Virus record (IMG/VR): IMGVR_UViG_3300035698_035303
Coordinates: 639 to 64,638 of that record
DNA length: 64,000 nucleotides
Source of the DNA: a virus
Lineage: Duplodnaviria > Caudoviricetes
Strand: one strand, 5' to 3'
Below are positions 35,030 through 62,521 of the stretch, one piece after another. The translations under genes and the position numbers were made by a program. The stretch's first letter is position 1; the number at the start of each line of letters is the position of its first letter. The notes below the pieces were generated by a model that saw only the letters and a list, made by a program, of their open reading frames with translations, ran no database searches and was not told the origin of the DNA.

Positions 35030-36745
35030 ATGGTTAGAACGTCGAAACAAAAAGCAGAGATAGCTAAATGTAAGAAGAATGCTTCTTACTTTATTGAGAA
35101 CTACTGCAAGATTCGGCACCCTTTGCATGGTGTTATACCATTTCATATGCATTCGTTTCAAACGAAATTAGCTGATGATTTCATGAATTATCAGAATCAT
35201 ATAATTAACAAATCAAGGCAGACGGGAATCTCGACTATAACAGCATGTTACAGCCTTTGGATGCTTCAATTTCAAATGCATAAAGAAATAACTGTTATAT
35301 CAAGAAAAGACGAAGAGGCAATGGCATTTATTGATAAAGTTAGATTAGCTTGGGAACACTTACCAGATTGGATGAGAGTACCTAAAGGCGGGTCTAACAA
35401 TATGCATAATTTTCAATTAGTTACACATAGTAAAATTAAAGCCGAAGCCAAATCAAAATCCGCAGGTCGTTCAGCATCATTAAATATGTTGATACTTGAT
35501 GAGGCTGCACATATTGACGTTATTAGAGATATTTGGAAATCAGCTATGCCAACATTAAGTCGTGGTCATGGTAAATGCATTATGATTTCGACCCCAGACG
35601 GAATGGGTAACTTGTTCCACGAGACAGTTGAGAAAGCAAAGCTAGAAGGTACGCCAGAATGGAATGAATTTAGATTCACATTTTGTCATTGGACAGACGT
35701 CCCTGAGTATGATGAGGCGTGGTATAAAAAAGAACGACCAAAATGGAATGATCGTGACTGGGCACAAGAATATGAAGGTGACTTCCTTGGTTCCGGTAAT
35801 ACAGTTATCCCAGCAGATATGTTAAAGATTTTAGAAAAGAAGCTTAAACCACCAATCGGTTATTTGAATCTTGATATGAAGCCATGTTCAAATGGTGAAG
35901 TTTGGGTTTGGTCTCTGCCAGCTCCTAAACATCAATATATTATTGGTGCTGATACTGCATCCGGTGATGGAAAAGATTTTTGCGCTGCCCTTGTAATGGA
36001 CATGAATACAGGCGAACAAGTAGCTGAATTCAAGAATAAAACAGTATCGCCAAAACGATTCGCAAAATTACTTTATGACCTTGCGAATTATTATAATGAA
36101 GCTTATGTAATCCCAGAAAACAATAATATGGGTATTCTTACATGCGAAGAGATTTATAACGTGCTTGGGTATTGGAATATATATTTAGAGCGTAATCCCC
36201 AGACCAATAAGGTCAATTATAGGAAGCCTGGGTTTAACACAACTGCAAAAACTAGGCCAATTCTTATTGAAGGACTTAAAACATTATTTGACCCTAATGG
36301 TATGTGGACTATTCGTAGTCAACGATTTTTCTTGGAAGCTACAACGTTTACATGGCGTGGTGGCAAAGCTCAAGCAGAAAACAACTATAATGATGACTTA
36401 ATGATATCTGGTGGGCTGATAGGTGGAAATATTGATTCCATTTTGTTAGATAATCCCCTTGCCGAGATAAAGCAAGAAGACGAGGGGTCAGAAACAGATA
36501 TATGGGGTAATCAAGTAGAGTTTAATATGGCTGATACAAATCCGCCAGATGCTGCTATGTTTTCAATCGGTGATGATGATAATGATTCTAATAATGAACC
36601 AAGTCCTGAACCTAATGATTTTGAAGTTGACCCGTTTAATCCTCAACATCAAAGGTTACTTGGATTTGAAAATACAAACAAAATAAAAGATCAAATGACA
36701 GAATTTAGTTGGTTATACAATCAACAAAATAATAGGGGAAATTAA
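35030..36745 (+). CDS. terL: Terminase large subunit (T4 gp17-like)
   Basis: Walker A KSRQTGIST, Walker B LILDEAAH, coupling motif ISTPDG, nuclease motifs IIGADTASG and NDDLMIS. Confidence 0.96.
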   Translation: MVRTSKQKAEIAKCKKNASYFIENYCKIRHPLHGVIPFHMHSFQTKLADDFMNYQNHIINKSRQTGISTITACYSLWMLQFQMHKEITVISRKDEEAMAFIDKVRLAWEHLPDWMRVPKGGSNNMHNFQLVTHSKIKAEAKSKSAGRSASLNMLILDEAAHIDVIRDIWKSAMPTLSRGHGKCIMISTPDGMGNLFHETVEKAKLEGTPEWNEFRFTFCHWTDVPEYDEAWYKKERPKWNDRDWAQEYEGDFLGSGNTVIPADMLKILEKKLKPPIGYLNLDMKPCSNGEVWVWSLPAPKHQYIIGADTASGDGKDFCAALVMDMNTGEQVAEFKNKTVSPKRFAKLLYDLANYYNEAYVIPENNNMGILTCEEIYNVLGYWNIYLERNPQTNKVNYRKPGFNTTAKTRPILIEGLKTLFDPNGMWTIRSQRFFLEATTFTWRGGKAQAENNYNDDLMISGGLIGGNIDSILLDNPLAEIKQEDEGSETDIWGNQVEFNMADTNPPDAAMFSIGDDDNDSNNEPSPEPNDFEVDPFNPQHQRLLGFENTNKIKDQMTEFSWLYNQQNNRGN

Positions 36746-36747
36746 AT

Positions 36748-39700
36748 ATGGATTACGGACGTAAAACAAATTTGAATGATGCTGCTATTAACAGAGGTCT
36801 ATCAGAAAAAATTGATCAAGATATTATGGACCGTAGCGCAAATATTCTTGAAACAGTTGACAGAAGTAAGCTTACTGTATCTGATATATTGGGGAGAACG
36901 AATACTGAACCCCCAGTTGACGAAGGGACGACTCTTCGTAAGATAGTTAAAGAGCTAAGAGGTAAGAAACATCGCAAATGGGTATCTAAAAACGAAATAC
37001 GCGAGTATATGCGCGAGAAAATGCCTGACGATGAGACTTTTGATGCTTTTTGGAGCAGTGCAAAACAATCGAATGCAGGACATCGTAATTATGAATTTGG
37101 GAAACGCGGAGACGATGAGATAGTAACAAACGGCAAAAAACGTTATGCCGAGTCAATAGATGACCCTAATTGTCATTTTCTACCAGATGACTTAAAATTT
37201 AGTCATGGTGACAATCAGGACCTTACTAAGCTTATGGAAGATAACCCAAATATGGGTCTAGGCTTTTTAGAGGGGTTCGGTGAAAAACCAGTCTTTGCCA
37301 AAATTGAGGAAAACAAACGTTTCTCATCCGATGCTGATGTTAACATGATTCTTGAGGGAGTTGATGAAGGTGCGTATACAAATAAGCAATGGACATTAGC
37401 TGCAAAAATGATAGCAGATGCTGCAAAAAATATTGTTAGAGCCTCTGATTGGGTTCAAGTAAAAGCAGCCGTAAATAAAATTGATGAACCAACCGGAGTT
37501 TATAGACATCCCAAACGTCCTAAAGGTTTAGCAAAAGCAATTGACGCTGTTTATAAAATGTCTAAAGATGGCAAAGATTGGCAGCAAATGAAAGCAAGCG
37601 TTATTAAATCATGGAAAGAATTAGACACTGCATATGCAAAAGCTGCTGAGAGAAGTCTTGCTTTAGAAGGTGATGCCCCTGGCGTTCCTGACGGAACTGG
37701 CCCAAGAAGCAAAAAAGGGAATTGCCCAATGAGCGAGTCTGGGCTTTCTTATGAGACATTAGCCAAAAACATTAAAAACGGTAATATAAAATCTGGAGCT
37801 ACTATATTTGCTGCGGATAAAGAGTTTAAGGTCAAATCAGCTAGTGTTCAAGGCGATACTGTTTACATTGAAACAGACACACGTGTTTTTAAAGTTAAAA
37901 ACGAAAAAGATGGTGATTCTGTTATTACAAAGTTTGATATGTCTGCTAATGAGTCTATAAATGAATCAATTTCAGTTGTTGACGAAGCTGGGCTTTCTTA
38001 TGAGACATTAGCTAAAAATATTAAAAATGATAATATAAAATCTGGAGCCACTATATTTGCTGGAGATAAAGAATTTAAAGTTAAATCTGCTAGCGTTCAA
38101 GGTGATACAGTTTATATTGAAACAGATAAACGTGTTTTTAAAATCAAAAATGAAAAGGATGGCGATTCTGTTATTACAAAGTTTGATATGGGCGTTGATG
38201 AGGCCAAATTTGAATACAATATTCCTCACTTAAATAAAGCCAAAACCCGTAAAGGGCAGATTATTCAGGTTGTAACAAAATCTCCTAAAGTCTTTCATTA
38301 TTGGACTGGTAAAGCGTGGACTAAATCTTTGGATGGAGCCAAAGAGCTTGTATCCGGGCCAGAAGCTAAAAGTGATCTTAAAAAAGCTCTCGCAAGTTGG
38401 GATGTATCAACAGTAGAGAACGTTGATGAATATATAAAGCTTGGTCCTAAAGACAAACGGGTTATTAAAGACTTCATGGCAGGCAAATCTAGTTCCAGCA
38501 AGAATTTAGATACAGACGGCAAAAAACTTGATGGTGTTTGGATGGGTGGAAATAAATTAGCAACTCGTGGTTCTGATAAGATGATTTCATTTAGCGATAC
38601 AGGCGGTAAATCGGCACAGATTATTAAGAATTTTGCAAAGAAACTCAACCCTGCCGTTATTCATGAAGATATTGATGAAGCAAATCGTGTGAACACTGAC
38701 GCATATATGCGCTCCCACGGTAAAAAACCCAAAGGTCGTGGCAGATGGTTGTTCTTCTTCGGTGAAAAAGCTCACAAAGACTGGCCAAAAAAGACTGACG
38801 GATCATTTGCTTCCTCTAACACCACCTTCGGTGATGCTGTAAAGCAAGCAAAAATCGAAGTTAAAAAACGTGGTTTAAAAGATATTGAAATTATTGTTGG
38901 TGAGTCCACAACAGAGAGCGTTGAAGACGCTATTGAATCCTTATCATTATCTTTATTTGGTGAGGATAGGAATCGCCCTTTTGACCGAATTGTGGATGAG
39001 GCCAAAGGTCTTGTTTACACAGTATCATTTGATAGTGATCGTGATTTAGAAAAATTTGAAAAGAAATATAAGAGTCCTATTGGTGGTGTAACGTGGAAGA
39101 AAATTACCACTAAGCCCAGGATTACCCAATCAATCAATGTTTTTTACAAAGGTGGACAGGCTGGGAAAGAAGAAGGAAGCAAATTCATAGGAAAGATAAA
39201 AGACGAATTCACCAGAGTTTTTGTTACTTCCAATAAACGTTCTGATGCTAAGGATGAAGCTATTGAATCTTTATCATTATCTTTGTTTGGAGAAGCTAAA
39301 TATGAGCATCCTCCATCAAATATACATAAGGAACCATTTGGTACTCAGGTTTACTTCGCGATTAAACCTCTGGAGAAAACTCTTCCTGAGAAAGATGCAT
39401 ACGCCAGTATAACTAATCAGGATCTTTCGACTAGGAACCCAGAAATTCAAATCGCCTTCTACTCTAAGAAGGGTAGGGATTTATTGGGGTGGATTACCTT
39501 CAAGGTGTCTTTCTCTGGTAAGAATGTAAAAACCAAAGTTCTTGACACACATAAGTACGGCAAGGATAACCAAAGGGCATTAACTAAAGAAGTTGAAGAC
39601 GCCTTGAAAAAAGCTAAGGTTCAACCGTTATCCGAAGACGTTGATGAAGCTGGGTTATTAAGAGCTCCCGCACATGTTAAACAAATTCTTGTACAATTAG

Positions 39701-40389
39701 CTAAAAAAATTAAAGGCGTTAAAATTACGAAATCCAGTCGTGGTAATTACATGTTTGGTGGTAATAATCTAGCTAAAGGTCCTGCTGAAAAAATTGTTAA
39801 AGCCTTGAAAGATTTAGGCAAAACAGGTAGAGTAGCAGAAATAGATGGTAAATTTTTTGCTCAAACTTCCCTTGGCGAATCTGTAGATGAAGGCAAGAAG
39901 CCTACAGGCGCAAAACTTGAAGCTGCAAAAAGATTATTAGCAAGATTCAAAAAAGAAAAAGGTGATACTGCTGAAGCATCAGCAGACTTTATTAATGCAT
40001 ATATTAAGGGCGATGAAAAGTTTATGCGTCGTATTTTATATGCCCCAGGTAACTCTCGTAGAGGTGCTTTATATGCCCAGGAACGATTAAGAATGATGAC
40101 CGAGGATATAAACGATTTACTTGAAGAATTAATGATAATGTGCGAAGATATAGATGATATTTATACTATTGAATTTCCAAAAAGTAATCAAGATTCTGAC
40201 TACTCAAAGATTATAGACTTACTTACAAAACACCCACAAGCAAAAAAGCTTGGCAAAAAAGCTTGGATCAAAGCTGGCAAGCTTCTTATTAAAGGATTTG
40301 ATGTCAAAGGATTAACTAGTCTTATTAAAAATCCAGGTATTAATTTAATGAGTAAAATAAATCAGACAAAAATAACTTTGTTAAGTTAA
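36748..40389 (+). CDS. 1213-aa modular protein, candidate protease-processed head polyprotein
   Basis: Lys-rich modules separated by recurring [VI]DE|[AGY] sites; one module duplicated. Confidence 0.7.
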   Translation: MDYGRKTNLNDAAINRGLSEKIDQDIMDRSANILETVDRSKLTVSDILGRTNTEPPVDEGTTLRKIVKELRGKKHRKWVSKNEIREYMREKMPDDETFDAFWSSAKQSNAGHRNYEFGKRGDDEIVTNGKKRYAESIDDPNCHFLPDDLKFSHGDNQDLTKLMEDNPNMGLGFLEGFGEKPVFAKIEENKRFSSDADVNMILEGVDEGAYTNKQWTLAAKMIADAAKNIVRASDWVQVKAAVNKIDEPTGVYRHPKRPKGLAKAIDAVYKMSKDGKDWQQMKASVIKSWKELDTAYAKAAERSLALEGDAPGVPDGTGPRSKKGNCPMSESGLSYETLAKNIKNGNIKSGATIFAADKEFKVKSASVQGDTVYIETDTRVFKVKNEKDGDSVITKFDMSANESINESISVVDEAGLSYETLAKNIKNDNIKSGATIFAGDKEFKVKSASVQGDTVYIETDKRVFKIKNEKDGDSVITKFDMGVDEAKFEYNIPHLNKAKTRKGQIIQVVTKSPKVFHYWTGKAWTKSLDGAKELVSGPEAKSDLKKALASWDVSTVENVDEYIKLGPKDKRVIKDFMAGKSSSSKNLDTDGKKLDGVWMGGNKLATRGSDKMISFSDTGGKSAQIIKNFAKKLNPAVIHEDIDEANRVNTDAYMRSHGKKPKGRGRWLFFFGEKAHKDWPKKTDGSFASSNTTFGDAVKQAKIEVKKRGLKDIEIIVGESTTESVEDAIESLSLSLFGEDRNRPFDRIVDEAKGLVYTVSFDSDRDLEKFEKKYKSPIGGVTWKKITTKPRITQSINVFYKGGQAGKEEGSKFIGKIKDEFTRVFVTSNKRSDAKDEAIESLSLSLFGEAKYEHPPSNIHKEPFGTQVYFAIKPLEKTLPEKDAYASITNQDLSTRNPEIQIAFYSKKGRDLLGWITFKVSFSGKNVKTKVLDTHKYGKDNQRALTKEVEDALKKAKVQPLSEDVDEAGLLRAPAHVKQILVQLAKKIKGVKITKSSRGNYMFGGNNLAKGPAEKIVKALKDLGKTGRVAEIDGKFFAQTSLGESVDEGKKPTGAKLEAAKRLLARFKKEKGDTAEASADFINAYIKGDEKFMRRILYAPGNSRRGALYAQERLRMMTEDINDLLEELMIMCEDIDDIYTIEFPKSNQDSDYSKIIDLLTKHPQAKKLGKKAWIKAGKLLIKGFDVKGLTSLIKNPGINLMSKINQTKITLLS
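37739..38190 (+). repeat. Direct duplication of ~203 bp (37739-37941 and 37988-38190), period 249 bp
   Basis: Both copies encode GLSYETLAKNIKN...SVITKFDM with mostly synonymous differences. Confidence 0.95.
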
Positions 40390-40399: not shown

Positions 40400-40837
40400 A
40401 TGTTGAAACACCCCGATTTAGAATTAAAACTTGCTGAAGGATCTGAACTTTTACGTAATTCTATTTTAGCCGATGGCATGACGATAAAAGAAGAACGTCA
40501 GAAGAGTGGGCGGTTGCTATTGCGCTGTTCAAAGCACAATAAGCTTTTTAATGCAAGTCTTGCTTTGGATACTTTGGGTTGGAGATTGTCCATTATAAGT
40601 AATAATGGCATCTTAGAAAATGCAACTTTCAAGGTAAATAATTGTACTACAACCGGATTAAAAAAACTTATTGAACGTGCCGGATTGAAAATAGTTTTAA
40701 TAGCCAAACCAATAATTGAAGATAAGCCTTTACCCAATGTTTTAGAATTTAAATTAAAAGAGAAAAGAGTTTCGTATGAAAGAAACTCCAAAGAAATGAC
40801 AGTCAAAGATGTTTTACAAAAGGTGAAAAATGACTGA
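40400..40837 (+). CDS. Hypothetical protein
   Basis: GGAG RBS; fills the gap between co-oriented genes. Confidence 0.6.
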   Translation: MLKHPDLELKLAEGSELLRNSILADGMTIKEERQKSGRLLLRCSKHNKLFNASLALDTLGWRLSIISNNGILENATFKVNNCTTTGLKKLIERAGLKIVLIAKPIIEDKPLPNVLEFKLKEKRVSYERNSKEMTVKDVLQKVKND

Positions 40838-42449
40838 TACCTTTACTGACAATATTACTTTAGACCCTGAATTTCTTTGGTTGCCAAAACCAACAGGGGA
40901 ACTAGGGAGCCTTGCAGGTAAAGTTGGTAATTTCATGCCTTATTGTAATATAAAATTTGCTGATCTTCCTTTGTTTCATATTCCCAATGAACATCTTATT
41001 GATATGTCATTAGGACTTGGTATAGGTAGTGGCGGTGGTGTTGGTGGAACAACAATAAATTTGACATTACTTGACCCAACGAACTTTATTCTTGAGCGTG
41101 TTATGCGTTATGCAATAATGAGAAACAACTATGGTGGTTGGGCATTCTTATTAGTTCAATTTGGGTGGACAGACGGAATAACAAATTATGGAATGCAACC
41201 TGATGAATTCCTCAAATTTTCTGTTAGCAATTGGGTCCAAACTGTTGATACAGGGGTAACAAGATATACACTTACAGGGGTGTCTCAAGGACAAATGTTG
41301 CTTCGCAATGTTAGAGTCCCTGATACTATAGCTCTGCCTTTTGTGGATTCTGTACCAGTAAGTGGAAAAGCTTATAAAACTCAAACTGGGTATGTTTTAG
41401 ATGAAATGCTAAATAGACTCATTCCCAACTTGCCTAATAAAGTAAAAGTTATTGGTAATATAAGTGATAGAGGGATAGCAGATATCGCTGGTTTTTTCAA
41501 TCAAGCTGGTAATCAACGTGGCATAACTCTGTTTAAAGAATTAGCAAATAAATACTTAACAACAACAAGCGGTGGTTATTTTCAATGGTGTTTTGTTAGC
41601 CATGTTAATGAAAAATCTGCGGTTAAAGATGCAAAGAGTAGTGACGAAGTAACTGCCCCAGTTAATAATGGTGTTTACATATTATTTTATGACCCAAGTT
41701 ATGTTGACGACTTACGAAAACAAAATGCAATTGTTCGTAACTCATCAATGCCATCTGAATATTCAATTTACAAATCTTGTGAGGCGTTAATTAGATGGCC
41801 AAATCATATGGGTTATGCTTTAGAACTACAAATTGGTGGAAATACCGATTGGCTTGGAAATGCATTTGATTTAACACGAACATCTATTACGGCTGCAGGA
41901 CAAGTAAGTCCAGGTCCCACTGTTAAAACAAAAACCCCAACAAACGAATCAGTCATTCAAGATGGCGCATTAAATACTATCGATAGAAGTCATAATGCAG
42001 ATCAGATGGGTGGCGGTGCAGGGCAAACCACAACAGGTAAAGCATCAAACATGGGTACTATCAACGCAGCAAAAGGTCAAAGGTCACAGGCTTTTGCTAA
42101 TCAAATGACCCTGACAACTAAAGGGGAACCATGGTTTGTTAATCAAGCAATGTTCGCTGGTATGCATTTTGGCGTTTTGTTTGATAATAAAACAAATTTA
42201 TCGAGGGTTATGGTCCCTTACGCAGCAAATGACCCAGACCAATTAAAAAATTCAATTCCGATGTTACGATCATTAACCCCTGAAAATTTTCAATTCTTAA
42301 TGGATGGAGGCTTTTTTGACCCTGAACAATTCCCAAGCCCCTTAACAGGAACATGGGCAATCCAAGGTGTTACTCAACGGATCTCTGGCGGTACATTTAC
42401 GACGTCATTTCAATTACTAAGGGACTTAGAACAGGAGACAAGCATATGA
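40830..42449 (+). CDS. Probable baseplate hub protein (gp27 / late control D-like)
   Basis: LVQFGW near the N-terminus; C-terminal MTLTTKGEPWF...GTWAIQGVTQRISGGTFTTSFQLLR. Confidence 0.6.
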   Translation: MTDTFTDNITLDPEFLWLPKPTGELGSLAGKVGNFMPYCNIKFADLPLFHIPNEHLIDMSLGLGIGSGGGVGGTTINLTLLDPTNFILERVMRYAIMRNNYGGWAFLLVQFGWTDGITNYGMQPDEFLKFSVSNWVQTVDTGVTRYTLTGVSQGQMLLRNVRVPDTIALPFVDSVPVSGKAYKTQTGYVLDEMLNRLIPNLPNKVKVIGNISDRGIADIAGFFNQAGNQRGITLFKELANKYLTTTSGGYFQWCFVSHVNEKSAVKDAKSSDEVTAPVNNGVYILFYDPSYVDDLRKQNAIVRNSSMPSEYSIYKSCEALIRWPNHMGYALELQIGGNTDWLGNAFDLTRTSITAAGQVSPGPTVKTKTPTNESVIQDGALNTIDRSHNADQMGGGAGQTTTGKASNMGTINAAKGQRSQAFANQMTLTTKGEPWFVNQAMFAGMHFGVLFDNKTNLSRVMVPYAANDPDQLKNSIPMLRSLTPENFQFLMDGGFFDPEQFPSPLTGTWAIQGVTQRISGGTFTTSFQLLRDLEQETSI

Positions 42450-45400
42450 GCTTGCTACCAACATTTTTTAATGATATCCAACAAAATATTGATAAGTTTG
42501 GCTATGTCGGACATGACGATATCATTTCAGCTCCTTTAACACCAAAAGACAATTATCATGCACCTATTCCAGTTCATGATGAATCAGATTGGTATCAAAA
42601 CTTTATGTTTGTTGGGGAAGATCGTCTCCAAAGATATACTGATTTTGTTGGGATGGACGCACATCCTCTTATGTCATCCGCTCTTGACATTTATGCTGAA
42701 GAGTCATCACAAAAAGACGCATGGGGAAATGTTCTTCAAATTCATACAGATGACCAAGTCATTAAAGAAGAATTAGAACATTTATTGTTTAAACGTTTAA
42801 ATATCAACCATAATCTTTTCCGTATTGTAAGAGAAACATGTAAATATGGTGATAAATATCAATACCTTGTTTTAGAGAAAAACCGAAAAGGCGTTTTATT
42901 CTTAAAAGATATGCCTGTTCAATCAGTTTGGCGTTTGGAATGGCAAGGAAAACTACTTGCATTTGTACAACAGACACCAGCAGGTATTACTCCCCCACTT
43001 GACCCATTTAGTGTCGTTCATTGGAGAATTGCTTTAAATCAAGAACGCTACAAACCTTATGGAACATCTATATTTGATCCATGTCGTCGCCATTACCGTC
43101 AATTAGTTTTGATGGAAGACGCTATGGTCGTATATCGAATTACTAGAGCTCCGGAAAGAAGAGTGTTCTTTGTTAATTGTGGACGTTTGCCAACTCCTAA
43201 AGCCGAAGAATATATGAAGAAAATTACAGGCAGATTTCGTAAACGTTCTATTGTTAACCCAGTTAATGGTGAAATTGACTGGAGATCGAATCCGCTTGCC
43301 CCTGATGAAGATTTTTACATTCCCATAAGAGATGGGAATGACGGAACAAGGATTGAACAACTTGCAGGAGCCCAAAATCTTGGTGAAGTTGACGATGTTG
43401 TTTGGTTTAAAGACCAAATTCTGGCTTACCTCAAAATCCCCCGTGTTTATTTACAAGATACAGATGGGGGTTCGTCTGAACGCAGAGAAAATCTGTGTTT
43501 AGACGGCGATACTAAAATTGCACTTTTAGATGGGACTTCGCCTACTATCAAGGAACTTTCAGAAAAAGATGAAGATTTTTGGGTATATTCCATAAATGAG
43601 CATAATAAAGTTGTTCCTGGATTGGCGTCGGGGGTTAAGTTAACAAGGTCAAATACAGAAGTTGTTGAGGTTGAACTTGATAATGGTGAAAAGGTTATAT
43701 CAACACCTGATCATCCATTTATGAAACGTGATGGAACATATTGTAAAGCTGAAGACCTCAAATCAGGTGAATCATTAATGCCTTTATATAGAAAAATATC
43801 TGGTGTTGATGACGATAGTTGTCTAAAGGGATATGAAAAGGTTTACAATCCAAAATCGGGTAAATGGCCATTTACCCATAGGATGGTTGAGGAATCATTA
43901 CATAACCAAATCCCAAAGGATTGTGTTGTTCATCATTGTAATTTCAATAAGCGTGACAATAGCCCAAATAATTTAAAAGTAATGAATACTCAAGATCATG
44001 CAAAATATCATATTGAATTAGCATCTAAAAACATAACACCTGAAGTAATAGCTAAAAGAAATAAATCAATTAAAAGATTTTATAATACAGAAGAAGGAAA
44101 ACGTAAAATTGAATTAACTCGATTGGCAGGGGTAGAGAATCAACAAAAATGGTTAAAATCTAAAAAACATAGAGATTTTAAAAGTAAATTACGTAAACAA
44201 AGATATGTTCCTGGTGATGCATTTTATGATTTTCAACATTCAGATAAGAATGTAGAGTTGGGTAGAGAACGAGGACGACTAAATGTCATCAACGGTGCTA
44301 TTTCAAAGATGATTCAGAAAGCGGCGGATGCAAACAGGCGTAATGACATAACCTTTGACAAAGTTGTTGCAGCTGCTGAAAGTGGGGGTTATAGCCGGAA
44401 TACCCTCAGAGATCATCTAGGATGTTCTATTGGTCTGATTATTGCTGCAATCAAAAGTAATGGATTGACTTATAAAGAATTCCACAGGATTTACATAGCT
44501 CTACCAAGGATGAACTATCTTATAAAAATTGCGAAGGGCTGTCACTGTCAAAATATGGTTGATCTTATAAAATGGTCGAAGTTTTCAAAACCAGAAATTA
44601 TAAGAAGTATTAATAGTTATGGAATGAAAGTTCCTGAATTTATGAAAAAGTATTGTGACTTCACTCCAATGGATATATCCGAACAATGTAAGAACCATAA
44701 AGTTGTGGCTGTACGGAAATTAGAACAAAAAAGAGATACTTACTGTATGACCGTAAAAAAGTATCATAATTTTGCCCTAAGTAGCGGAATATACGTTAGA
44801 AATTCGATGCAAGATATTCGTTTTGCGCGAACAATAGAGAGAGTTCAAACGGAGATCCTTGAGGGGATAACTAAGATTTGTATTATCCATTTAATGCTTC
44901 GTGGTTATAATAAAACTCGTGCGTTAAATTTTGCAATTCAAACAACATCACCCTCATACGCGCACGAACGTGCGGAACAAGAAGTTGAAAGCAGCAGATT
45001 AAGTCTTGCAGATTCATATTTTGAAACGGGTTTCCCTCGTGAGTATACATGGGAACGAATTCTCAAACTTACTAAAAGAGAAACACGTAAATTACAGAAA
45101 AAACGTAGACAAGAAGATTTAATTTTAGCTGAGAGAGAAGCACAAGTCGAAGCTTATAGGACAAAAGCGACTGAATTTTATGAGGAGTTGTACTCAAATA
45201 AATGGGGTCTTGTTAAAGATACTGACGGGGATGATGATCAACAAACTAAAGATACCCATAAGTCAGGGGATGTCCCAAAGACATCCCAAGAACCTTATAG
45301 CGGTCATGGCAAAGGTAAAGAAATTGAACCAGCTAGAGAACAACCAGATGTAACAGCGCCACCAAAAAGTGAAACAGCGCAAAAAGAGACTATTAACCAA

Positions 45401-45886
45401 CTTATTAAAAAAGATGGGGATGAATCCGATCAAGAACAAATAATAATTGATCAGCCAGCTAACCCTACTAGGCTAAAGCAATCTTCTACACCTGATAAAG
45501 ATAAAAAAGTAAGAACTAAGGAACAAATAGAAGAAGAATTCAAAGTTATGCGTTCAAAATTTCTTGGAGATGATGGTGAGGAATTACGCGAGGATATGTT
45601 GTTTAATGGAATCGACAATAAAACATCGACAATACATCGAAATGGCATTAATCAAAATTTAGAAGATACTGCAAGAAGGCAAAGAGGACCAAAGTCTAAT
45701 TGCCATATTGAGCTACTTGCCCACGGTGAACTAGCTCCATTGAATTTAGCAGGTGGTAAATTAGCCATTACAACTAAAGGACCGTTAATGAGATCTATTC
45801 AGGCATTTCGCCAATTACAAAATAGCCAACGAAATGAGTGGTTATTAGGGACTGGGGAAAATGATGATAAAGAGATTAAACAGTAA
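42446..45886 (+). CDS. Portal protein (T4 gp20-like) containing an intein
   Basis: LMEDAMVVYRITRAPERRVFFVNCGRLP, EDFYIP, LAGAQNLGEVDDV and DIRFARTIERVQ motifs; start 42446 has AGGAG and an ATGA overlap. Confidence 0.95.
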   Translation: MSLLPTFFNDIQQNIDKFGYVGHDDIISAPLTPKDNYHAPIPVHDESDWYQNFMFVGEDRLQRYTDFVGMDAHPLMSSALDIYAEESSQKDAWGNVLQIHTDDQVIKEELEHLLFKRLNINHNLFRIVRETCKYGDKYQYLVLEKNRKGVLFLKDMPVQSVWRLEWQGKLLAFVQQTPAGITPPLDPFSVVHWRIALNQERYKPYGTSIFDPCRRHYRQLVLMEDAMVVYRITRAPERRVFFVNCGRLPTPKAEEYMKKITGRFRKRSIVNPVNGEIDWRSNPLAPDEDFYIPIRDGNDGTRIEQLAGAQNLGEVDDVVWFKDQILAYLKIPRVYLQDTDGGSSERRENLCLDGDTKIALLDGTSPTIKELSEKDEDFWVYSINEHNKVVPGLASGVKLTRSNTEVVEVELDNGEKVISTPDHPFMKRDGTYCKAEDLKSGESLMPLYRKISGVDDDSCLKGYEKVYNPKSGKWPFTHRMVEESLHNQIPKDCVVHHCNFNKRDNSPNNLKVMNTQDHAKYHIELASKNITPEVIAKRNKSIKRFYNTEEGKRKIELTRLAGVENQQKWLKSKKHRDFKSKLRKQRYVPGDAFYDFQHSDKNVELGRERGRLNVINGAISKMIQKAADANRRNDITFDKVVAAAESGGYSRNTLRDHLGCSIGLIIAAIKSNGLTYKEFHRIYIALPRMNYLIKIAKGCHCQNMVDLIKWSKFSKPEIIRSINSYGMKVPEFMKKYCDFTPMDISEQCKNHKVVAVRKLEQKRDTYCMTVKKYHNFALSSGIYVRNSMQDIRFARTIERVQTEILEGITKICIIHLMLRGYNKTRALNFAIQTTSPSYAHERAEQEVESSRLSLADSYFETGFPREYTWERILKLTKRETRKLQKKRRQEDLILAEREAQVEAYRTKATEFYEELYSNKWGLVKDTDGDDDQQTKDTHKSGDVPKTSQEPYSGHGKGKEIEPAREQPDVTAPPKSETAQKETINQLIKKDGDESDQEQIIIDQPANPTRLKQSSTPDKDKKVRTKEQIEEEFKVMRSKFLGDDGEELREDMLFNGIDNKTSTIHRNGINQNLEDTARRQRGPKSNCHIELLAHGELAPLNLAGGKLAITTKGPLMRSIQAFRQLQNSQRNEWLLGTGENDDKEIKQ
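43496..44803 (+). mobile_element. Intein (436 aa) with HNH homing endonuclease in the portal gene
   Basis: Starts CLDGDTKIALLDG; block B STPDHPF; ends YCMTVKKYHNFALSSGIYVRN followed by Ser; internal HRMV..VVHHCNFNKRDNSPNNL..H HNH motif. Confidence 0.93.
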
Positions 45887-48115: not shown

Positions 48116-48961
48116 ATGACAGAACAGCAAAGCATTATTGATTTATTAACGGAAACTCGTGGGGTTCTATCAGAACTTCACAGGTTAGGTCTCCCAGGGC
48201 TTGACCCAAGATTACCACCTGAAATATTGGAACATAATCTTTATACAGACCCAAAAGATCATATTCTCTTATTAGAAGAAACTATGGTCCTTGCTCCGTA
48301 TTTTGATGTTGAAGTCAATGAGTCAATTGACCCTTATGAACAGGCTATGATATTGATGGAGGCTAACGGGGATGGACGGCTTCTTATGCGTGGGGTTTTC
48401 CAACGCGCTGGGAAGAAAAATCAAAATGGTAGAATATATTCCAACGAACTTTTGCAAAGAGAAGTTAAAAGGTTGCAAGATTCTATCGATGATAACAGAC
48501 TTGGTGGTGAATTAGACCATCCACAAAGTGCTAAAATTCGCGTCCCTGTCACAAGTCATTTAATAACTAAACTATGGATACCTAACAATTCAGATGAGGT
48601 TTATGGGGAGTTAACTCCTACTCACAATTCATCTGGTAGGGATTTGTTTAATTTAATAACTAAAGACAAAATGAGATTAGGCGTTTCAAGTCGTGGTACT
48701 GGAACTCTCAAAGAGACAGACAACGGGCTTCTTGTACAGCCTAATTATAATATGATTACTTTTGATATTGTTGCGGACCCATCAACTCACGGAGCTTTTC
48801 CAACTGAAGTTAACAACAGTAACAAAAAAATCGACAAAAAATCAACAACTGAAGAAAAACAAGATAATAATGATTCCAGTGTAGAATTACTGGAAATAAC
48901 AACAGAATTAATTACCCGGATGAAAAACGTATTCGGTCAAAGGCCAGGAGATAAAAAATGA
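48116..48961 (+). CDS. Prohead maturation protease (T4 gp21-like)
   Basis: GVFQRAGKKNQNGRIY, GELDHP, GVSSRGTG and FDIVADPSTHGAF motifs. Confidence 0.95.
   Translation: MTEQQSIIDLLTETRGVLSELHRLGLPGLDPRLPPEILEHNLYTDPKDHILLLEETMVLAPYFDVEVNESIDPYEQAMILMEANGDGRLLMRGVFQRAGKKNQNGRIYSNELLQREVKRLQDSIDDNRLGGELDHPQSAKIRVPVTSHLITKLWIPNNSDEVYGELTPTHNSSGRDLFNLITKDKMRLGVSSRGTGTLKETDNGLLVQPNYNMITFDIVADPSTHGAFPTEVNNSNKKIDKKSTTEEKQDNNDSSVELLEITTELITRMKNVFGQRPGDKK
48832..48867 (+). promoter_or_regulatory. CGACAA-N23-AAGATAA motif inside the 3' end of the protease gene
   Basis: Same boxes as the intergenic copies; ~90 nt upstream of the scaffold start. Confidence 0.4.
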
Positions 48962-50217
48962 AAAAAGTCTTAGAGAATGCACTTGGAGACGTTATAAACG
49001 TTCTTGGAGAAGAAAAAGCTTCACTAGTCGCCTTTGTTAGTGAAAAGGTCAAAGAAGCTGAAGAAAAAGTCGAAAAGATGAAAGGTGACTATGACGATAA
49101 AGTTGCTGAATTAAAAAGTGATAAAGAAAAGGCAGTCAAAGAGGCTGAAGATGAAGATGATGACGATAAAGTCAAAGAGGCTGAAGAAGAATTTGAAAAG
49201 AAAATTGAAAAAGTTAAAGAGTCTTTTGATGCAAAAATTGCTGAAATGAAAGACGACTTTGAAAATAAAATTAAAGATGAAGCTGACGATGATGACGATG
49301 ATGACGATGATGACGATGATGACGATGAAGAAACTGACGAAGGTGAACTACCTCCGGCTTTGAAAAAAGCAATAGAGTTAAAGAAAGCCATCACAAAAAG
49401 TAAAAATGAAGCTGACGATGATGACGATGAAGAAACTGATGAAGGTGAATTGCCACCAGCTTTGAAAAAAGCAATAGCGAAAAAGAAAGCCGAATCAGGA
49501 GACGATGAATGTAAAGAATGTGATGACAAAGAAGAAAAAATTGAAAAGCTTGAAAAAGAGGCTGTAGAAAAAGAAGACGAAATTGAAAAGATTAAAGAGG
49601 GATTAGCAGAAAAGGTTAATTCATTTTTAACAAACATCCTCCCTCGTCTACACAACATTGTTAAAGAAGAAAAAACATTATCTCCAGACAATATGAATGC
49701 TGAGAATATTCTCGAAAGCATTAAAACATTGGTTGGAGAAGGTAATTTACCATCCTCGAGCCTTTCTGAGGAAGTTAATAAAGATGAGTTCAGTGAAAAA
49801 ATTGCTGAATTTGAAACTAAGTTCGAAGAACTCACAGAAACACAAGAAGATCTCAAGGGGAGATTAAGGCGTAAATCTAACAAGCTTAATGAGGGCTTGA
49901 CTGATAACGCACAACTCAATGCGCAGTTGAAAGTGTGGGAGCTTTGTGCAGATGATCCGGATCGTGATTTCATTATGACACGACTTGCCGAATGCGCAAC
50001 CGTTGATGATGTGGAAGAACAGTTCCCGATTCTCAAGGAAAAAATTAGACGTGATGCTGAAGAGGATCTTATTGAAGAATTTGGGGACCCCAATTTTGAG
50101 GGACCTGGTTCTAACATCAATGAGGAAGTTCCAACAAAGCCAAGTGATTTATCACCTTTGAATGAAAGTGACAAAAATAGATTGGCTGAACTTGCTGGGA
50201 TTATGCCTATTAAGTAA
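48958..50217 (+). CDS. Prohead scaffold/core protein (T4 gp22 position)
   Basis: Acidic coiled coil between protease and MCP; duplicated EADDDD..EETDEGELPPALKKAI; C-terminal RLAELAGI. Confidence 0.8.
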   Translation: MKKVLENALGDVINVLGEEKASLVAFVSEKVKEAEEKVEKMKGDYDDKVAELKSDKEKAVKEAEDEDDDDKVKEAEEEFEKKIEKVKESFDAKIAEMKDDFENKIKDEADDDDDDDDDDDDDDEETDEGELPPALKKAIELKKAITKSKNEADDDDDEETDEGELPPALKKAIAKKKAESGDDECKECDDKEEKIEKLEKEAVEKEDEIEKIKEGLAEKVNSFLTNILPRLHNIVKEEKTLSPDNMNAENILESIKTLVGEGNLPSSSLSEEVNKDEFSEKIAEFETKFEELTETQEDLKGRLRRKSNKLNEGLTDNAQLNAQLKVWELCADDPDRDFIMTRLAECATVDDVEEQFPILKEKIRRDAEEDLIEEFGDPNFEGPGSNINEEVPTKPSDLSPLNESDKNRLAELAGIMPIK

Positions 50218-50259: not shown

Positions 50260-52101
50260 ATGAGTAACACAAACGCATATCGCCAGGTTGGTCGTAGACT
50301 AATCGAAAGATGGTATCCTCTATTAGAGGGTCTCAGGGGCGAAGAAAACATCATTAACATGGCAATACTCTTGGAAAATGAGTGGCGTGAGGGTGGAAAC
50401 CTTCTCCCAGAATCTGACCAAATTATTGCTGAGTTCACCGCTTCAACTTTGGCTGGTCCTTCTGGACAGACCCCACAGGTCGCAACATTCAGACATTACC
50501 TAATGCCTTTGATTCGAAGAGTATATCCTAACCTATTTACTAACCAACTTGTTGGCGTTCAGCCAATGACTGGTCCATCAGCTCAGATTTTCTATTTGAA
50601 ATACTTTTATTCTGGTATCTCAAACATGCAAGACCCTTGGGGAACAACTCCAACAAGTAAGGGTGGAACTGCTCCTGGTACTGAGTATGGTAACTTTAGT
50701 GGAGATTCATGGTTCGTCGATCCATATTACTCCATGCAAACAGTTCGTCGTGAACCTATAGCTGCATTTGCAGGATCAGATTTTTCTGGTGCGCCAGCCA
50801 CAGTAACTCATGATATGGTTGCTGCTAACGGTCAGCCTCCTGTTTTTGATAATACTTCAAAATGGTATTTCCTTGCAGCAGATGCTAATACATACGCAGT
50901 TGCTACAACTGTAACACTTATTGAGTTAACTGGCTTTGTAAATGGTGTAACCCCAGGTTCCGCTATTACAGCTACATCAATTGCTACTATCAAAGGTACA
51001 ACCGCATTTACTAATACAGTAACAGGTTGGATTGATAGAACAGGTGCTTCTAGCGCAAATCAGTGGAACATTGTTACAAGTAATGTTGGTTCCCATGATT
51101 TCTTCTTATCCGCCACAGAATCTGCTGCAGCTGTAACTGCTGGATCTGATTACTTGGGTGTTAATACTGTTACTTATGACTTCAATATGGAAAACAGACC
51201 AGAAATGCCTGAACTTTCCTTAGAAATCGCAAGCGATACAGTAGGCGTTCAGACTCGTAAATTGCGCACCGTATGGTCCGTTGAGTCTAGCCAAGATATG
51301 AAAGCTATGCATCAAATTGATGCTGAAAAAGAGCTTATTAGTCTTCTAGCTGCTGAACTAGCTGCTGAGATTGATCGTGAAACTTTGAATAACCTTATCA
51401 TGAATGCTGGACAAAGACGCGATTACAACTATTCCCATCCTGGAATCGTTGGTGGTTTTGCTCAAGCAAATGGTGCTGGTTACTTGAACTGGGATCAGCA
51501 AGCAAGTATTCCTGCTGCCGGTGCTGGAGCATGGTTCCCCGTACCAGGATCTGGTAATTACGATGATCGTAACAAATCATTGATGTATCAAACAATTGAA
51601 ATGGCTAATGACATTTATCGCCAATCGCTTCGTGGTTCTGCTAACTGGATTGTTACTTCCCCAAGTATCGCCAGCAAGTTTGAAGCAATGAGTGAATTCG
51701 AATCCACTGCAACTTCTGAGACTCTATACAATATTGGTATTCAGGAAAGTGGCATCTTGGCAAGTAAGTTTAAGTTGATTAAAGACCCTCTATTCCCTGA
51801 AGATTTAATTCTCATGGGTTATAAAGGCCCTTCATTTATGGACAGTGGTTACTTCTATTGCCCATACGTACCAATTCAGCTTACTCCAACAGTTGTTGAC
51901 CCACGTACCTTCAATCCTGTAAAAGGTGTAATGACTCGTTACGGCAAATTGATGGTTGAAAATGGGGAGAGAATGTACGGACTTATTAAGGTTGACAATC
52001 TTAATTCAGTTGGTAGTTCAACTCCTGCAGGGTTCCCAATCCAGACCAGCTCGACTGTAAGTGGCAGCGATATGATCAGTGGCGATACGAACCTAGTATA
52101 A
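50260..52101 (+). CDS. Major capsid protein (T4 gp23-like)
   Basis: PLIRRVYPNL, VGVQPMTGP, TRKLRTVWSVE, AEIDRE, YCPYVP and PVKGVMTRYG motifs. Confidence 0.97.
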   Translation: MSNTNAYRQVGRRLIERWYPLLEGLRGEENIINMAILLENEWREGGNLLPESDQIIAEFTASTLAGPSGQTPQVATFRHYLMPLIRRVYPNLFTNQLVGVQPMTGPSAQIFYLKYFYSGISNMQDPWGTTPTSKGGTAPGTEYGNFSGDSWFVDPYYSMQTVRREPIAAFAGSDFSGAPATVTHDMVAANGQPPVFDNTSKWYFLAADANTYAVATTVTLIELTGFVNGVTPGSAITATSIATIKGTTAFTNTVTGWIDRTGASSANQWNIVTSNVGSHDFFLSATESAAAVTAGSDYLGVNTVTYDFNMENRPEMPELSLEIASDTVGVQTRKLRTVWSVESSQDMKAMHQIDAEKELISLLAAELAAEIDRETLNNLIMNAGQRRDYNYSHPGIVGGFAQANGAGYLNWDQQASIPAAGAGAWFPVPGSGNYDDRNKSLMYQTIEMANDIYRQSLRGSANWIVTSPSIASKFEAMSEFESTATSETLYNIGIQESGILASKFKLIKDPLFPEDLILMGYKGPSFMDSGYFYCPYVPIQLTPTVVDPRTFNPVKGVMTRYGKLMVENGERMYGLIKVDNLNSVGSSTPAGFPIQTSSTVSGSDMISGDTNLV

Positions 52102-55577: not shown

Positions 55578-55853
55578 ATGAAAGACAATAGAACATTAAA
55601 CGAAGTGACTGAAAATTTTGGGATGAGTGAAGGCGTGGACAAGATTTCTATACCTGGTACGGATTTTGTTTTTACTATTCCTCTGTTTTATAAGGATAAA
55701 CCAGCTAAAAAGAAATCTGGGCATGTCCAACATAAATCGGGTCATCCACGCGGCGAATGGTTTGTTAACAAAAAAGGTAAAGTGACTTTCTTAGATGATT
55801 GGGATAAAGAGAAGAAAATGGCTGCATTCATAACGAAGGAAATAGGGCTATGA
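55578..55853 (+). CDS. Leader-family hypothetical protein
   Basis: MKDNRTLNEVTENFGMSE|G. Confidence 0.75.
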   Translation: MKDNRTLNEVTENFGMSEGVDKISIPGTDFVFTIPLFYKDKPAKKKSGHVQHKSGHPRGEWFVNKKGKVTFLDDWDKEKKMAAFITKEIGL

Positions 55854-56802: not shown

Positions 56803-56814
56803 TAAGGATTAATT

Positions 56815-57504: not shown

Positions 57505-57508
57505 TATA

Positions 57509-57763: not shown

Positions 57764-57798
57764 CCGGAAATACAATAATATTCCTGTGGATAAAGAAC

Positions 57799-58826: not shown

Positions 58827-58835
58827 GGAGATAAT

Positions 58836-59309: not shown

Positions 59310-59318
59310 GGGCACAGA

Positions 59319-60364: not shown

Positions 60365-60375
60365 GAATATTATTA

Positions 60376-61722: not shown

Positions 61723-61759
61723 TTTAAAGTTACCCGCAATATTTAAAGAGGATAATATT

Positions 61760-61966: not shown

Positions 61967-61992
61967 TTTAATCTCCATTTTAAGGGGAGTTA

Positions 61993-62511: not shown

Positions 62512-62521
62512 GACTTGATAA

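What the first reader, a model, noticed from the sequence alone, without database searches (positions are those of the whole stretch)
36748..40389. 1213-aa 'beads on a string' polyprotein punctuated by [VI]DE|[AG] sites
Seen: VDE|G (E59, E207, E1048), VDE|A (E413, E485, E751, E967), VDE|Y (E561), IDE|A (E644), plus ALE|G (E307) and FGE|A (E849). These split most of the protein into Lys-rich units of about 70-120 aa joined by short acidic linkers. One unit is duplicated starting right at such a site, and the linker AIESLSLSLFGE occurs twice (38929, 39259). Established: T4 gp21 and phiKZ gp175 prohead proteases cut after Glu in short motifs. Inference: one gene packages about ten small independent proteins, which are released inside the maturing head. 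This would be a polyprotein strategy in a tailed phage, growing by module accretion.
Basis: partly seen in the sequence, partly recalled or inferred. Interest (0 to 1): 0.88.

Follow-up and report, generated by a model that had tools for sequence, protein, structure and literature searches.

The report
Phage head-cargo polyprotein, cut-site linkers
One gene of an uncultured giant T4-like phage strings about eleven small, mostly unrelated protein modules together with short acidic linkers that fit the cutting rule of the phage's own head-maturation protease, so it probably loads a kit of small proteins into the capsid, although no cutting or packaging has been measured.

Summary
ORF 36748-40389 (+) encodes 1213 aa with 10 [VI]DE sites against 0.81 expected; 0 of 20000 shuffles reach 10. 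Eight sites are followed by Ala or Gly. The gene lies between a T4-type large terminase and portal, 8 kb upstream of an S77 (gp21-like) prohead protease.

Support for the polyprotein reading is comparative and structural, not direct:
- Relatives of 579-1880 aa share only the N-terminal domain and carry the same double-Glu linker grammar with other modules in other orders.
- Two modules have stand-alone homologues whose ends match the sites.
- AlphaFold2 places E59 and E561 in low-confidence segments just before compact domains.

Against: the protein lacks the window's 18-aa cargo leader. Five of eleven modules have no accepted homologue. Cleavage, packaging and injection are untested.

Verdict: probably a head-cargo polyprotein cut by the prohead protease (about 0.6). 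It is a new variant of known kinds, T4 internal proteins and 'polyvalent proteins'. I found no printed description. This scan's own unchecked notes report similar polyproteins on other genomes.

The parts
36748..40389 (+). Whole ORF, 1213 aa plus stop: candidate head-cargo polyprotein
   Evidence: no Pfam or PHROG family at E<=0.01
36748..36924 (+). Residues 1-59: acidic N-terminal segment ending VDE59|G, putative propeptide
   Evidence: Net charge -4. A [VIL]xE site at or next to this column in 7 of 9 N-domain homologues. pLDDT <50 at residues 49-60.
36925..37368 (+). Residues 60-207: conserved N-domain unit. The core 60-130 is a predicted winged-helix fold; the unit ends ILE-G-VDE207|G.
   Evidence: phmmer hits to the N-termini of 9 proteins of 267-1880 aa. 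AF2 pLDDT 75-88 for residues 61-130. Nearly all of the 50 listed VIA matches are winged-helix domains, Z 5.9-7.7, and many alignments start at residue 60.
37369..37668 (+). Residues 208-307: basic unit (net +8) that holds IDE247|P and ends ALE307|G
   Evidence: low-confidence model; marginal similarity (E 0.009) to the conserved C-terminal domain of P0064
37669..37737 (+). Residues 308-330: Gly/Pro-rich spacer ending MSE330|S
37738..37986 (+). Residues 331-413: duplicated module, copy 1, with tail ANE|SINE|SISVVDE413|A
   Evidence: homologous module in P0002 in another context, E 2e-13
37987..38202 (+). Residues 414-485: duplicated module, copy 2, ending GVDE485|A
38203..38430 (+). Residues 486-561: unit ending ENVDE561|Y
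   Evidence: one weak relative, inside the 2593-aa P0117, where it is flanked by SLDE|A and SIDE|A
38431..38679 (+). Residues 562-644: widespread small alpha/beta module, ending IHE-D-IDE644|A
   Evidence: 129 of the 150 listed phmmer hits, many of them stand-alone proteins of 76-103 aa. AF2 with 62 sequences: residues 565-634 at pLDDT 83-96, and the only stretch <50 is 556-561. No PDB fold match.
38680..39000 (+). Residues 645-751: 'SHGKKPKG' module plus a long acidic linker (first copy of the repeated 12-aa piece at nt 38929), ending IVDE751|A
   Evidence: 13 proteins and 14 occurrences; 13 of 14 start directly after xxE|A; both ends align with leader and linker sites of homologues
39001..39294 (+). 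Residues 752-849: unit ending with the second copy of the 12-aa piece (nt 39259) and FGE849|A
39295..39648 (+). Residues 850-967: unit ending LSE-D-VDE967|A
39649..39891 (+). Residues 968-1048: basic unit (net +8) ending LGE-S-VDE1048|G
39892..40386 (+). Residues 1049-1213: C-terminal unit (net +9). Residues 1123-1209 resemble the C-terminal part of the stand-alone 157-aa P0016.
48116..48961 (+). S77 (T4 gp21-like) prohead protease, the presumed processing enzyme
   Evidence: PF03420 E 6.7e-14; phrog_207 E 2.3e-41; aligns to T4 gp21 structure 5JBL, E 1.5e-7, with the ELDHP and SSRG motifs
35030..36745 (+). T4-type large terminase directly upstream; this synteny is conserved in relatives
42353..45886 (+). 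T4-type portal (interrupted by an intein with HNH), downstream context

Best explanation
The gene encodes a precursor that is built into the prohead core of an uncultured giant T4-like phage. There the phage's S77 (gp21-type) prohead protease cuts it after Glu in [VI]-D-E|[A/G] sites, and probably also in the companion [L/I/F]-x-E sites that sit 4-12 residues upstream in many linkers.

The expected products are:
- an acidic 59-aa N-terminal propeptide;
- a conserved winged-helix unit (residues 60-207);
- about ten further small units of 72-165 aa, nearly all basic, plus short acidic linker peptides.

By analogy with T4 internal proteins, the basic units would stay with the packaged DNA and enter the host with it. 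The gene belongs to a family that always sits directly after the large terminase gene. Members share the N-terminal domain and the linker grammar but exchange the modules freely.

Shown: the motif, its enrichment, the modular homology, the linker grammar in relatives, the synteny, the protease gene, and the predicted domain boundaries at three sites. Inferred: cutting, incorporation into the head, retention and injection, and any function of the modules.
For: 1. Motif: 10 [VI]DE against 0.81 expected, 0 of 20000 shuffles reach it; 8 of 10 are followed by A or G.

2. Enzyme and context: the order is large terminase, this gene, two unknown genes, T4-type portal, two unknown genes, S77 protease, acidic scaffold, gp23-like capsid protein. 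T4-family proteases cut after Glu (PMC5694885, passages).

3. The window's own cargo-type leaders end [IV]NE|[A/G/S], that is the same P3, P1 and P1' as the internal sites.

4. Family: nine proteins share the N-domain. The six with several modules (P0005, P0008, P0012, P0024, P0064, P0087) carry double-Glu linkers of the form L-x-E, 1-2 residues, [LIV]-x-E, then A/G/E/S, the same grammar as P0001 at E207, E644, E967 and E1048. LRE is enriched 7-9 observed against 0.6-0.8 expected in three of them.

5. Homology blocks start at linkers: 25 of 76 distinct HSP starts lie within 3 residues of a site, against a mean of 5.2 and a maximum of 16 in 1000 random placements.

6. Stand-alone homologues. 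The module at 645-751 follows xxE|A directly in 13 of 14 occurrences, either behind a T4-like short leader or behind a linker, and its C-terminal VGE-S motif aligns too. The module at 562-644 occurs as whole proteins of 76-103 aa.

7. Structure. Residues 556-561 are the only stretch with pLDDT <50 in the 545-660 model, and a compact domain follows at 565-634. Residues 49-60 are <50, followed by a winged-helix domain at 60-130.

8. Fast turnover. The relative G001 has 65% identical capsid protein, 62% portal and 56-59% protease. Its polyprotein shares only the N-domain, at 30% over 176 aa.

9. Other phage contigs hold the same design with other linker 'dialects'. One 1163-aa ORF has 7 exact ESVVTE, and 12 sites in the looser form against a maximum of 1 in 5000 shuffles. 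Of the 5 records searched, the leader- or linker-bearing forms lie in records with PF03420 in 2 of 3 (the third is 34% complete). The two leaderless stand-alone forms lie in records without it, one of them 100% complete.
Against: - There is no direct evidence of cleavage, packaging or injection. The phage is uncultured and no proteome is at hand.
- A profile of the window's eight 18-aa cargo leaders does not match this protein even at E<=100, so the route into the prohead is unexplained.
- The likely capsid-protein site is IAE58|F, not [VI]DE. The protease's exact preference in this phage is therefore not pinned down.
- 35 [LIVMF]xE triplets exist in the protein. Which ones are used cannot be told from sequence.
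- Three modules (208-307, 752-849, 850-967) gave no match among the 150 listed hits, and two more (486-561, 968-1048) gave only one weak or marginal match each. Only 150 of the 290 hits were listed.
- The 1-330 model is confident only for residues 61-130, so E207, E247 and E307 are untested.
- HSP starts are not independent, and some alignments include the linker itself.
- The PF03420 association rests on 5 records, 4 of them incomplete.
- The module at 645-751 also exists without any leader in 4 of 8 IMG/VR loci, so the module does not depend on the protease system.
Confidence: 0.6

Rival explanations
1. The protein is an intact multidomain 'polyvalent' virion or ejection protein. It is packaged and delivered whole, or loses only the N-terminal 59 residues. 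The acidic xDE stretches are flexible inter-domain linkers whose likeness to protease sites is not used.
For: Some polyvalent proteins are delivered unprocessed: the N4 virion RNA polymerase, ArdC and TraC1 (PMC5512222, passages). In SPN3US about 80% of head proteins are not cut, and 13 of 14 mapped cuts remove N-terminal propeptides (PMC10052503, passages). No cleavage data exist here.
Against: Plain flexible linkers need no fixed P3-P1-P1' pattern, yet 8 of 10 sites read [VI]DE[AG]. The same grammar ends the cleavable-type leaders of this window and of stand-alone homologues. Relatives keep the grammar while changing every module. A gp21-type protease is active inside the same prohead in T4 (PMC9958956, passages).
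Confidence: 0.2
2. The protein is a prohead core or scaffold-like assembly factor, of the T4 gp22/gp67/gp68 type. The many sites serve to chop it into pieces that leave the head. The pieces would be waste, not cargo.
For: Multiple cuts that clear core proteins and long propeptides are the known use of multi-site processing (PMC5694885 and PMC10052503, passages). The gene lies in the head-gene block.
Against: A separate, strongly acidic scaffold gene lies next to the protease. Nearly all units here are basic, net +2 to +9. At least two are folded domains with stand-alone homologues in other phages, including records without an S77 protease. Module content turns over far faster than the structural genes, which suits cargo better than an assembly factor.
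Confidence: 0.1
3. The protein is neither a head protein nor a protease substrate. It could be, for example, a cytoplasmic multidomain protein or a tail-associated protein. On this reading the motif reflects shared ancestry of linkers copied with modules.
For: There is no family match for the whole protein and no leader match. One module and one linker piece are indeed duplicated.
Against: Only 1 of 66 module pairs is strongly similar (z 44.7; the next are 6.3 and 5.9), so duplication cannot explain 9-10 sites. The position directly after the terminase gene holds in 3 further independent contigs. Leader-bearing stand-alone homologues point to head targeting of at least one module.
Confidence: 0.07

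Closest known systems
Phage T4 internal proteins IPI, IPII, IPIII and Alt (capsid-targeting sequence plus gp21 processing)
   Same: Small, Lys-rich proteins would be built into the prohead core, cut after Glu by a gp21-family protease, kept with the DNA and injected. A gp21 homologue is present here (PMC9958956, PMC3012670 and PMC5694885, passages).
   Different: In T4 each cargo is its own gene, with one N-terminal ~10-aa tag and one cut. Here about eleven units share one reading frame and are separated by internal sites, and the protein has no detectable copy of the window's leader.
Polyvalent proteins of phages and conjugative elements (Iyer, Burroughs, Anand, de Souza, Aravind 2017, PMC5512222)
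   Same: One polypeptide carries many unrelated domains (2 to 15), is encoded among late or structural phage genes, and is proposed to be packaged and injected with the DNA. The domains are shuffled between relatives, and the authors draw an explicit analogy to viral polyproteins (passages).
   Different: Release there is ascribed to embedded peptidase domains (MPTase). Here no peptidase and no other Pfam domain is found in the protein at E<=0.01. The units are separated by a regular site grammar that fits a protease encoded elsewhere, the prohead protease.
Processed head, ejection and inner-body proteins of giant phages phiKZ, 201phi2-1 and SPN3US (S80 proteases)
   Same: Prohead proteases related to gp21 cut after Glu in a three-residue motif, sometimes at several sites in one protein (PMC10052503 and PMC5694885, passages).
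   Different: The mapped multiple cuts lie in N-terminal propeptides, and one mature C-terminal product remains: 13 of 14 SPN3US sites are of this type. Here the sites are spread over the whole length between domain-sized units. The phiKZ paper itself (PMC3323674) is not held, so its details are recalled only.
T4 core proteins gp22, gp67 and gp68
   Same: They are cut many times by the prohead protease inside the prohead (PMC9958956, passages).
   Different: Those are assembly factors degraded to small peptides that leave the head. Here the units are domain-sized, basic, and have stand-alone homologues.

Membership tests
T4-type capsid-targeted internal proteins (CTS cargo) | The genome encodes a gp21-family (S77) prohead protease | tested here: met
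   PF03420 E 6.7e-14, phrog_207 E 2.3e-41, and alignment to 5JBL with the His and Ser motifs
T4-type capsid-targeted internal proteins (CTS cargo) | A short N-terminal capsid-targeting leader ending in Glu | tested here: not met
   An HMM of the window's eight 18-aa leaders gives no hit on this protein at E<=100. The N-terminal 59 aa do end in VDE|G, but they are not a recognisable CTS.
T4-type capsid-targeted internal proteins (CTS cargo) | Cleavage after Glu by the prohead protease; presence in virions; injection | not testable with these tools
   Uncultured phage; no proteome
Polyvalent proteins (Iyer et al. 2017) | Several unrelated domains in one polypeptide, shuffled between relatives | tested here: met
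   The N-domain and the modules at 331-413, 562-644, 645-751 and 1123-1209 each have separate homologues in other architectures. Relatives carry other modules.
Polyvalent proteins (Iyer et al. 2017) | Encoded among phage late or structural genes with a portal-terminase system | tested here: met
Polyvalent proteins (Iyer et al. 2017) | Carries the domains catalogued for the class (MPTase or other embedded peptidase, ArdC-N, LPD and enzymatic effector domains) | tested here: not met
   No Pfam-A family at E<=0.01 on the whole protein, and none at E<=1 on ten homologues apart from two chance-level rows. I could not open the paper's own domain lists, which are external files, so distant members may be missed.
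Prohead scaffold or core proteins (T4 gp22/gp67/gp68 type) | Acidic, largely helical assembly protein encoded next to the protease | tested here: not met
   Such a gene exists separately at 48958-50217. Nearly all units of this protein are basic, and one is a compact alpha/beta domain.
Winged-helix domains (N-domain core, residues 60-130) | Three helices followed by a beta-hairpin wing; structural match to solved winged-helix domains | tested here: met
   AF2 elements H63-74, H81-87, H95-108, E115-120, E123-128 at pLDDT 75-88. Nearly all of the 50 listed VIA matches are winged-helix domains, Z 5.9-7.7. These Z values are middling, so the fold class is likely; DNA binding is not shown.

The most novel reading that the evidence does not exclude
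S77-protease phages run a general 'cassette' system. One terminase-adjacent gene carries a conserved winged-helix head unit followed by a freely shuffled string of small effector modules. The prohead protease acts as a trans-acting polyprotein protease that releases them inside the capsid for co-injection. Each phage lineage uses its own linker dialect: xVDE|A here; LRE-D-x-LDE|A in the G001 group; ESVVTE|A, ESLDE|A and ESVNE|A in others. Modules move between three states: leader-tagged single genes, polyprotein beads, and untagged genes of phages without this protease.
Probability: 0.45. Interest if true: 0.8.

Novelty: new variant of a known kind. Interest (0 to 1): 0.7.

Why it matters
If the cuts are real, tailed phages use a polyprotein strategy for virion cargo. 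One targeting event and one promoter would load a whole, quickly exchangeable set of small proteins into the capsid, with the head-maturation protease serving as the releasing enzyme.

- It would extend the T4 internal-protein paradigm (one tag, one cargo).
- It would give 'polyvalent proteins' a concrete, testable release mechanism that needs no embedded peptidase.
- It would provide a sequence rule, linker grammar plus an S77 protease, for finding injected phage proteins in metagenomes. Many of these are likely anti-defence factors of unknown fold; the module at 562-644 has over a hundred relatives and no solved look-alike.
- The linkers are also natural, portable cut sites for loading foreign proteins into T4-like capsids.

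Tried and rejected
- Whole-protein family searches gave nothing: PHROGs and Pfam, tblastn against 50,697 phage records, and IMG/VR with the single protein.
- All three word-index homologue searches gave nothing: whole length, N-terminal 210 aa, and residues 752-1213 against shorter proteins. That index needs exact 5-residue words and missed even P0016, so these blanks weigh little.
- My impression that residues 7-20 resemble the window's cargo leader was tested with a leader HMM and rejected.
- ESM Atlas on residues 60-207: one hit at 0.80, below the level that means anything.
- Foldseek against the PDB for the 562-644 module: no match at E<=0.001. VIA-align wide: best Z 4.1. No fold assignment was made.
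- Two MAFFT alignments meant to give one multi-module alignment (A4, checked; A5) put the 645-751 and N-domain homologues onto the 562-644 block. I did not use them for folding. No model covers modules 331-561 or anything beyond residue 660, so most sites lack a structural test.
- The 1-330 model is uninformative outside residues 61-130.
- Scans with the N-domain alignment A2 found nothing in metagenome contigs or in genome contigs. No host or prophage relative was identified.
- The metagenome scan with A3 mainly recovered a module ('GIWDGDWD') that P0001 lacks. I used it only for synteny and as a side note.
- Pfam and PHROGs on ten homologues gave nothing usable.
- I did not use complex prediction, because an enzyme-substrate pair is outside its stated use. 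I did not use read laying or the look-up of sequencing runs.
- Supplements of the papers were not opened. The cleavage tables and domain lists of PMC10052503 and PMC5512222 may hold cases closer to this one than the passages I read.
- Literature searches for a printed description of prohead-protease-released phage polyproteins found none. The library lacks most subscription journals.

Full report
**What is there.** The window is an IMG/VR virus record of 64.6 kb, estimated 29% complete and labelled provirus. It has 37% G+C. ORF 36748-40389 (+) is open for 1213 codons.

Around it lie:
- a T4-type large terminase (35030-36745);
- two ORFs without family matches (145 and 539 aa);
- a T4-type portal interrupted by an intein with an HNH nuclease (42353-45886);
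- two more unknown ORFs (631 and 93 aa);
- an S77 prohead protease (48116-48961);
- a strongly acidic scaffold-like ORF and a gp23-like major capsid protein.

The protease aligns to the solved T4 gp21 (5JBL, E 1.5e-7) with its His- and Ser-bearing motifs. The capsid protein's nearest database relative is an uncultured huge phage at 31% identity, so this is a distant T4-like lineage. T4 itself has sheath and tube genes between terminase and portal.

**The observation.**
- [VI]DE occurs 10 times against 0.81 expected. None of 20000 shuffles reaches 10 (maximum 7).
- [VI]DE[AG] occurs 8 times against 0.12 expected.
- The other 54 ORFs of my rough gene call hold 15 [VI]DE in total.
- Duplication does not explain the enrichment. 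Only 1 of 66 unit pairs is strongly alike (331-402 against 414-485, 64/72 identical), and nine sites remain without the second copy.
- The codons at the sites differ synonymously. The two module copies differ by 16 synonymous and 8 non-synonymous codons.
- Residues upstream of the sites are acidic and those downstream are basic. Eight of twelve units carry net positive charge.

**Relatives.** Word-index and BLAST-type searches with the whole protein found nothing. A full HMMER pass over 1.84 billion representatives found 290 proteins at E<=0.001, of which 150 were listed. Re-scanning those 150 with each unit shows that the protein is a mosaic:
- Nine proteins of 267-1880 aa match only the N-terminal domain, always at their own N-terminus.
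- 129 proteins match only residues 562-644.
- 13 match only 645-751.
- One each matches 331-413, 486-561 and 1123-1209.
- One marginal row (E 1e-3) falls on 968-1048.
- Three units have no match (208-307, 752-849, 850-967).

**The family uses the same punctuation.**
- The long N-domain relatives are cut up by double-Glu linkers: L-[R/S/H/G]-E, one or two residues, then [L/I/V]-[D/N/S/T]-E followed by A/G/E/S. P0001 has this grammar at E207, E644, E967 and E1048. LRE alone is 7-9 observed against 0.6-0.8 expected in three of them.
- Recognisable modules begin right after the Glu and stand in different orders in different members.
- Of 76 distinct BLAST block starts among eight members, 25 lie within 3 residues of a linker, against 5.2 on average and at most 16 in 1000 random placements. 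These starts are not independent.
- The first site is itself conserved. A [V/I/L]-x-E lies at or next to the E59 column, 4-5 residues before the first helix of the conserved domain, in 7 of 9 homologues.

**Synteny and turnover.** In every locus with upstream sequence the large terminase gene ends just before the polyprotein gene: L002/L006 (one phage), L007 and L008. The relative G001 continues with a ~166-aa ORF, a 520-aa ORF (27% identical to the window's 539-aa ORF), the portal and a homologue of the 631-aa ORF. Its protease is 56-59% identical, its capsid protein 65%, its portal 62% and its terminase 47%. The two polyproteins share only the N-domain, at 30% over 176 aa, plus one marginal block (E 0.009). 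The cargo part therefore changes far faster than the head genes.

**Modules as independent units.**
- The 645-751 module ('SHGKKPKG') starts directly after xxE|A in 13 of 14 occurrences. It stands either behind a short T4-like N-terminal leader in proteins of 90-93 aa, or behind ES[L/V][D/N]E|A linkers in multi-module proteins. The 14th occurrence has LEE a few residues further upstream. Its C-terminal V-G-E-S motif aligns as well.
- In IMG/VR, 8 loci hold this module. Four are leader or linker forms. One is a 1163-aa ORF with 7 exact ESVVTE, and 12 in the looser form against at most 1 in 5000 shuffles. Another is a 560-aa ORF with five ES[V/A]xxE sites. The other four are bare 69-77-aa proteins.
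- PF03420 was found in 2 of 5 of these records, both with leader or linker forms. The third such record is 34% complete. PF03420 was absent from both records with bare forms, one of them 100% complete. This is a small sample, but it is what the protease hypothesis predicts.
- The 562-644 module occurs as whole proteins of 76-103 aa starting at Met1, behind leaders, or after xxE| in long proteins.

**Structure.**
- With a 62-sequence alignment, residues 545-660 fold (mean pLDDT 78) into a compact alpha/beta domain at 565-634 (pLDDT 83-96). The only stretch below 50 is 556-561, the linker that ends at E561. The region around E644 scores 65-70. No solved fold matches: Foldseek gives nothing at E<=0.001 and VIA gives a best Z of 4.1.
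- With 10 sequences, residues 1-330 are confident only at 61-130 (pLDDT 75-88), with three helices and a beta hairpin. Residues 49-60 score below 50. Nearly all of the 50 listed VIA matches are winged-helix domains (Z 5.9-7.7), and many alignments begin at residue 60.
- So E59, E561 and E644 lie outside compact domains. The other sites are untested.

**How it most likely works.** T4-family prohead proteases cut after Glu in three-residue motifs. T4 builds Lys-rich internal proteins into the core by a short leader, cuts the leader off, keeps the proteins with the DNA and injects them (PMC9958956, PMC3012670 and PMC5694885, passages only). The window's own array of small ORFs with one 18-aa leader ending [IV]NE|[A/G/S] shows the same P3, P1 and P1' as the internal [VI]DE|[A/G] sites. 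I therefore read the gene as a head-cargo precursor cut by the 48116 protease into an acidic propeptide, a winged-helix unit, about ten further small and mostly basic units, and short acidic peptides from the double sites. Confidence is about 0.6.

**What speaks against it.**
- Nothing about cutting or packaging is measured.
- The leader profile does not match this protein at all, so incorporation would have to go through the 59-aa N-terminus, the conserved winged-helix unit, or another route.
- The T4 gp23 site (LTE65|A; the residue number is recalled, the letters are) aligns near IAE58|F of the window's capsid protein. The enzyme therefore accepts more than [VI]DE, and 35 [LIVMF]xE triplets exist.
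- IDE|P at E247 is probably not a boundary.

**Comparison with what is known.** The closest concepts are T4 internal proteins and the 'polyvalent proteins' of Iyer et al. 2017. The latter are multi-domain, shuffled, capsid-packaged proteins for which release by embedded peptidases was proposed and likened to RNA-virus polyproteins (PMC5512222, passages). Here no embedded peptidase or catalogued domain is detectable, and a regular site grammar points to the prohead protease acting in trans. In SPN3US, multiple cuts lie in N-terminal propeptides: 13 of the 14 mapped sites remove N-terminal propeptides, across 9 proteins (PMC10052503, passages). Six library searches found no description of prohead-protease-punctuated cargo polyproteins. 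The library is incomplete and supplements were closed.

**Earlier notes of this scan.** Unchecked AI notes describe similar polyproteins with other linkers on other genomes. None resembles this protein by sequence. They agree with my reading but are not independent evidence. What is particular here:
- the missing leader;
- the conserved winged-helix first unit;
- the fixed position after the terminase gene;
- the double-Glu linker;
- the contrast between conserved head genes and an almost wholly exchanged module set in the relative G001.

**Verdict.** The modular, punctuated architecture and its evolution by module exchange are well supported. Processing by the prohead protease is the best explanation but remains inferred. 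This is a new variant of a known kind, with interest 0.7.

Noticed in passing
window 42353-45886: The T4-type portal gene is interrupted by an intein with an HNH nuclease (PF14890 E 9.8e-20 over residues 390-817; HNH_3 at 508-550). The portal of the relative G001 matches residues 32-382 and 818-941 contiguously, so it lacks the insert.
   Followed up: partly
window 55578-63282: Eight small ORFs share one 18-19-aa N-terminal leader ending [IV]NE|[A/G/S] (HMM E 1e-14 to 1e-16 each) and diverge afterwards. Two further ORFs (54582, 55104) match only weakly (E 0.1-0.2). This looks like a T4-style capsid-targeting array.
   Followed up: partly
L031:8567-12058 (IMG/VR contig, 94 kb, 33% G+C): A 1163-aa ORF is punctuated by 7 exact ESVVTE and 12 ES[VA][VI][TNI]E sites, against at most 1 in 5000 shuffles. 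One of its beads is the 'SHGKKPKG' module. It is a second, cleaner example of the same design, in a record where no S77 protease was found in the 34% that is held.
   Followed up: partly
proteins P0027, P0056, P0046, P0048, P0074, P0020, P0026 and others (homologues of residues 562-644): Many stand-alone homologues of this module carry a ~20-aa N-terminal helix ending ...[V/I/L]-[A/S]|[D/N] just before the domain, instead of a Glu-ending leader. This could be a targeting or cleavage signal for a different kind of head protease.
   Followed up: no
window 37390-37653 (residues 215-302) against P0064 residues 1423-1510: The unit at 208-307 shows marginal similarity (E 0.009, 27% over 89 aa) to the conserved C-terminal domain of the G001-group polyproteins. 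If real, the family's two conserved ends are adjacent here and the variable modules are appended after them rather than inserted between them.
   Followed up: no
window 40400-42449: ORFs of 145 and 539 aa sit where T4 has its sheath and tube genes. They have no Pfam or PHROG match. The 539-aa ORF is 27% identical to a 520-aa ORF at the same place in G001.
   Followed up: no
L009-L028 (metagenome contigs): The 'GIWDGDWD' module of the G001-group polyproteins, which is absent from P0001, also occurs as stand-alone ORFs of 166-427 aa on large phage-like contigs of up to 552 kb. It is another module found both free and as a bead.
   Followed up: no
window 50260-52101: The major capsid protein has a likely maturation site, IAE58|F, close to where T4 gp23 LTE|A aligns. 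This would make its propeptide about 58 aa.
   Followed up: no
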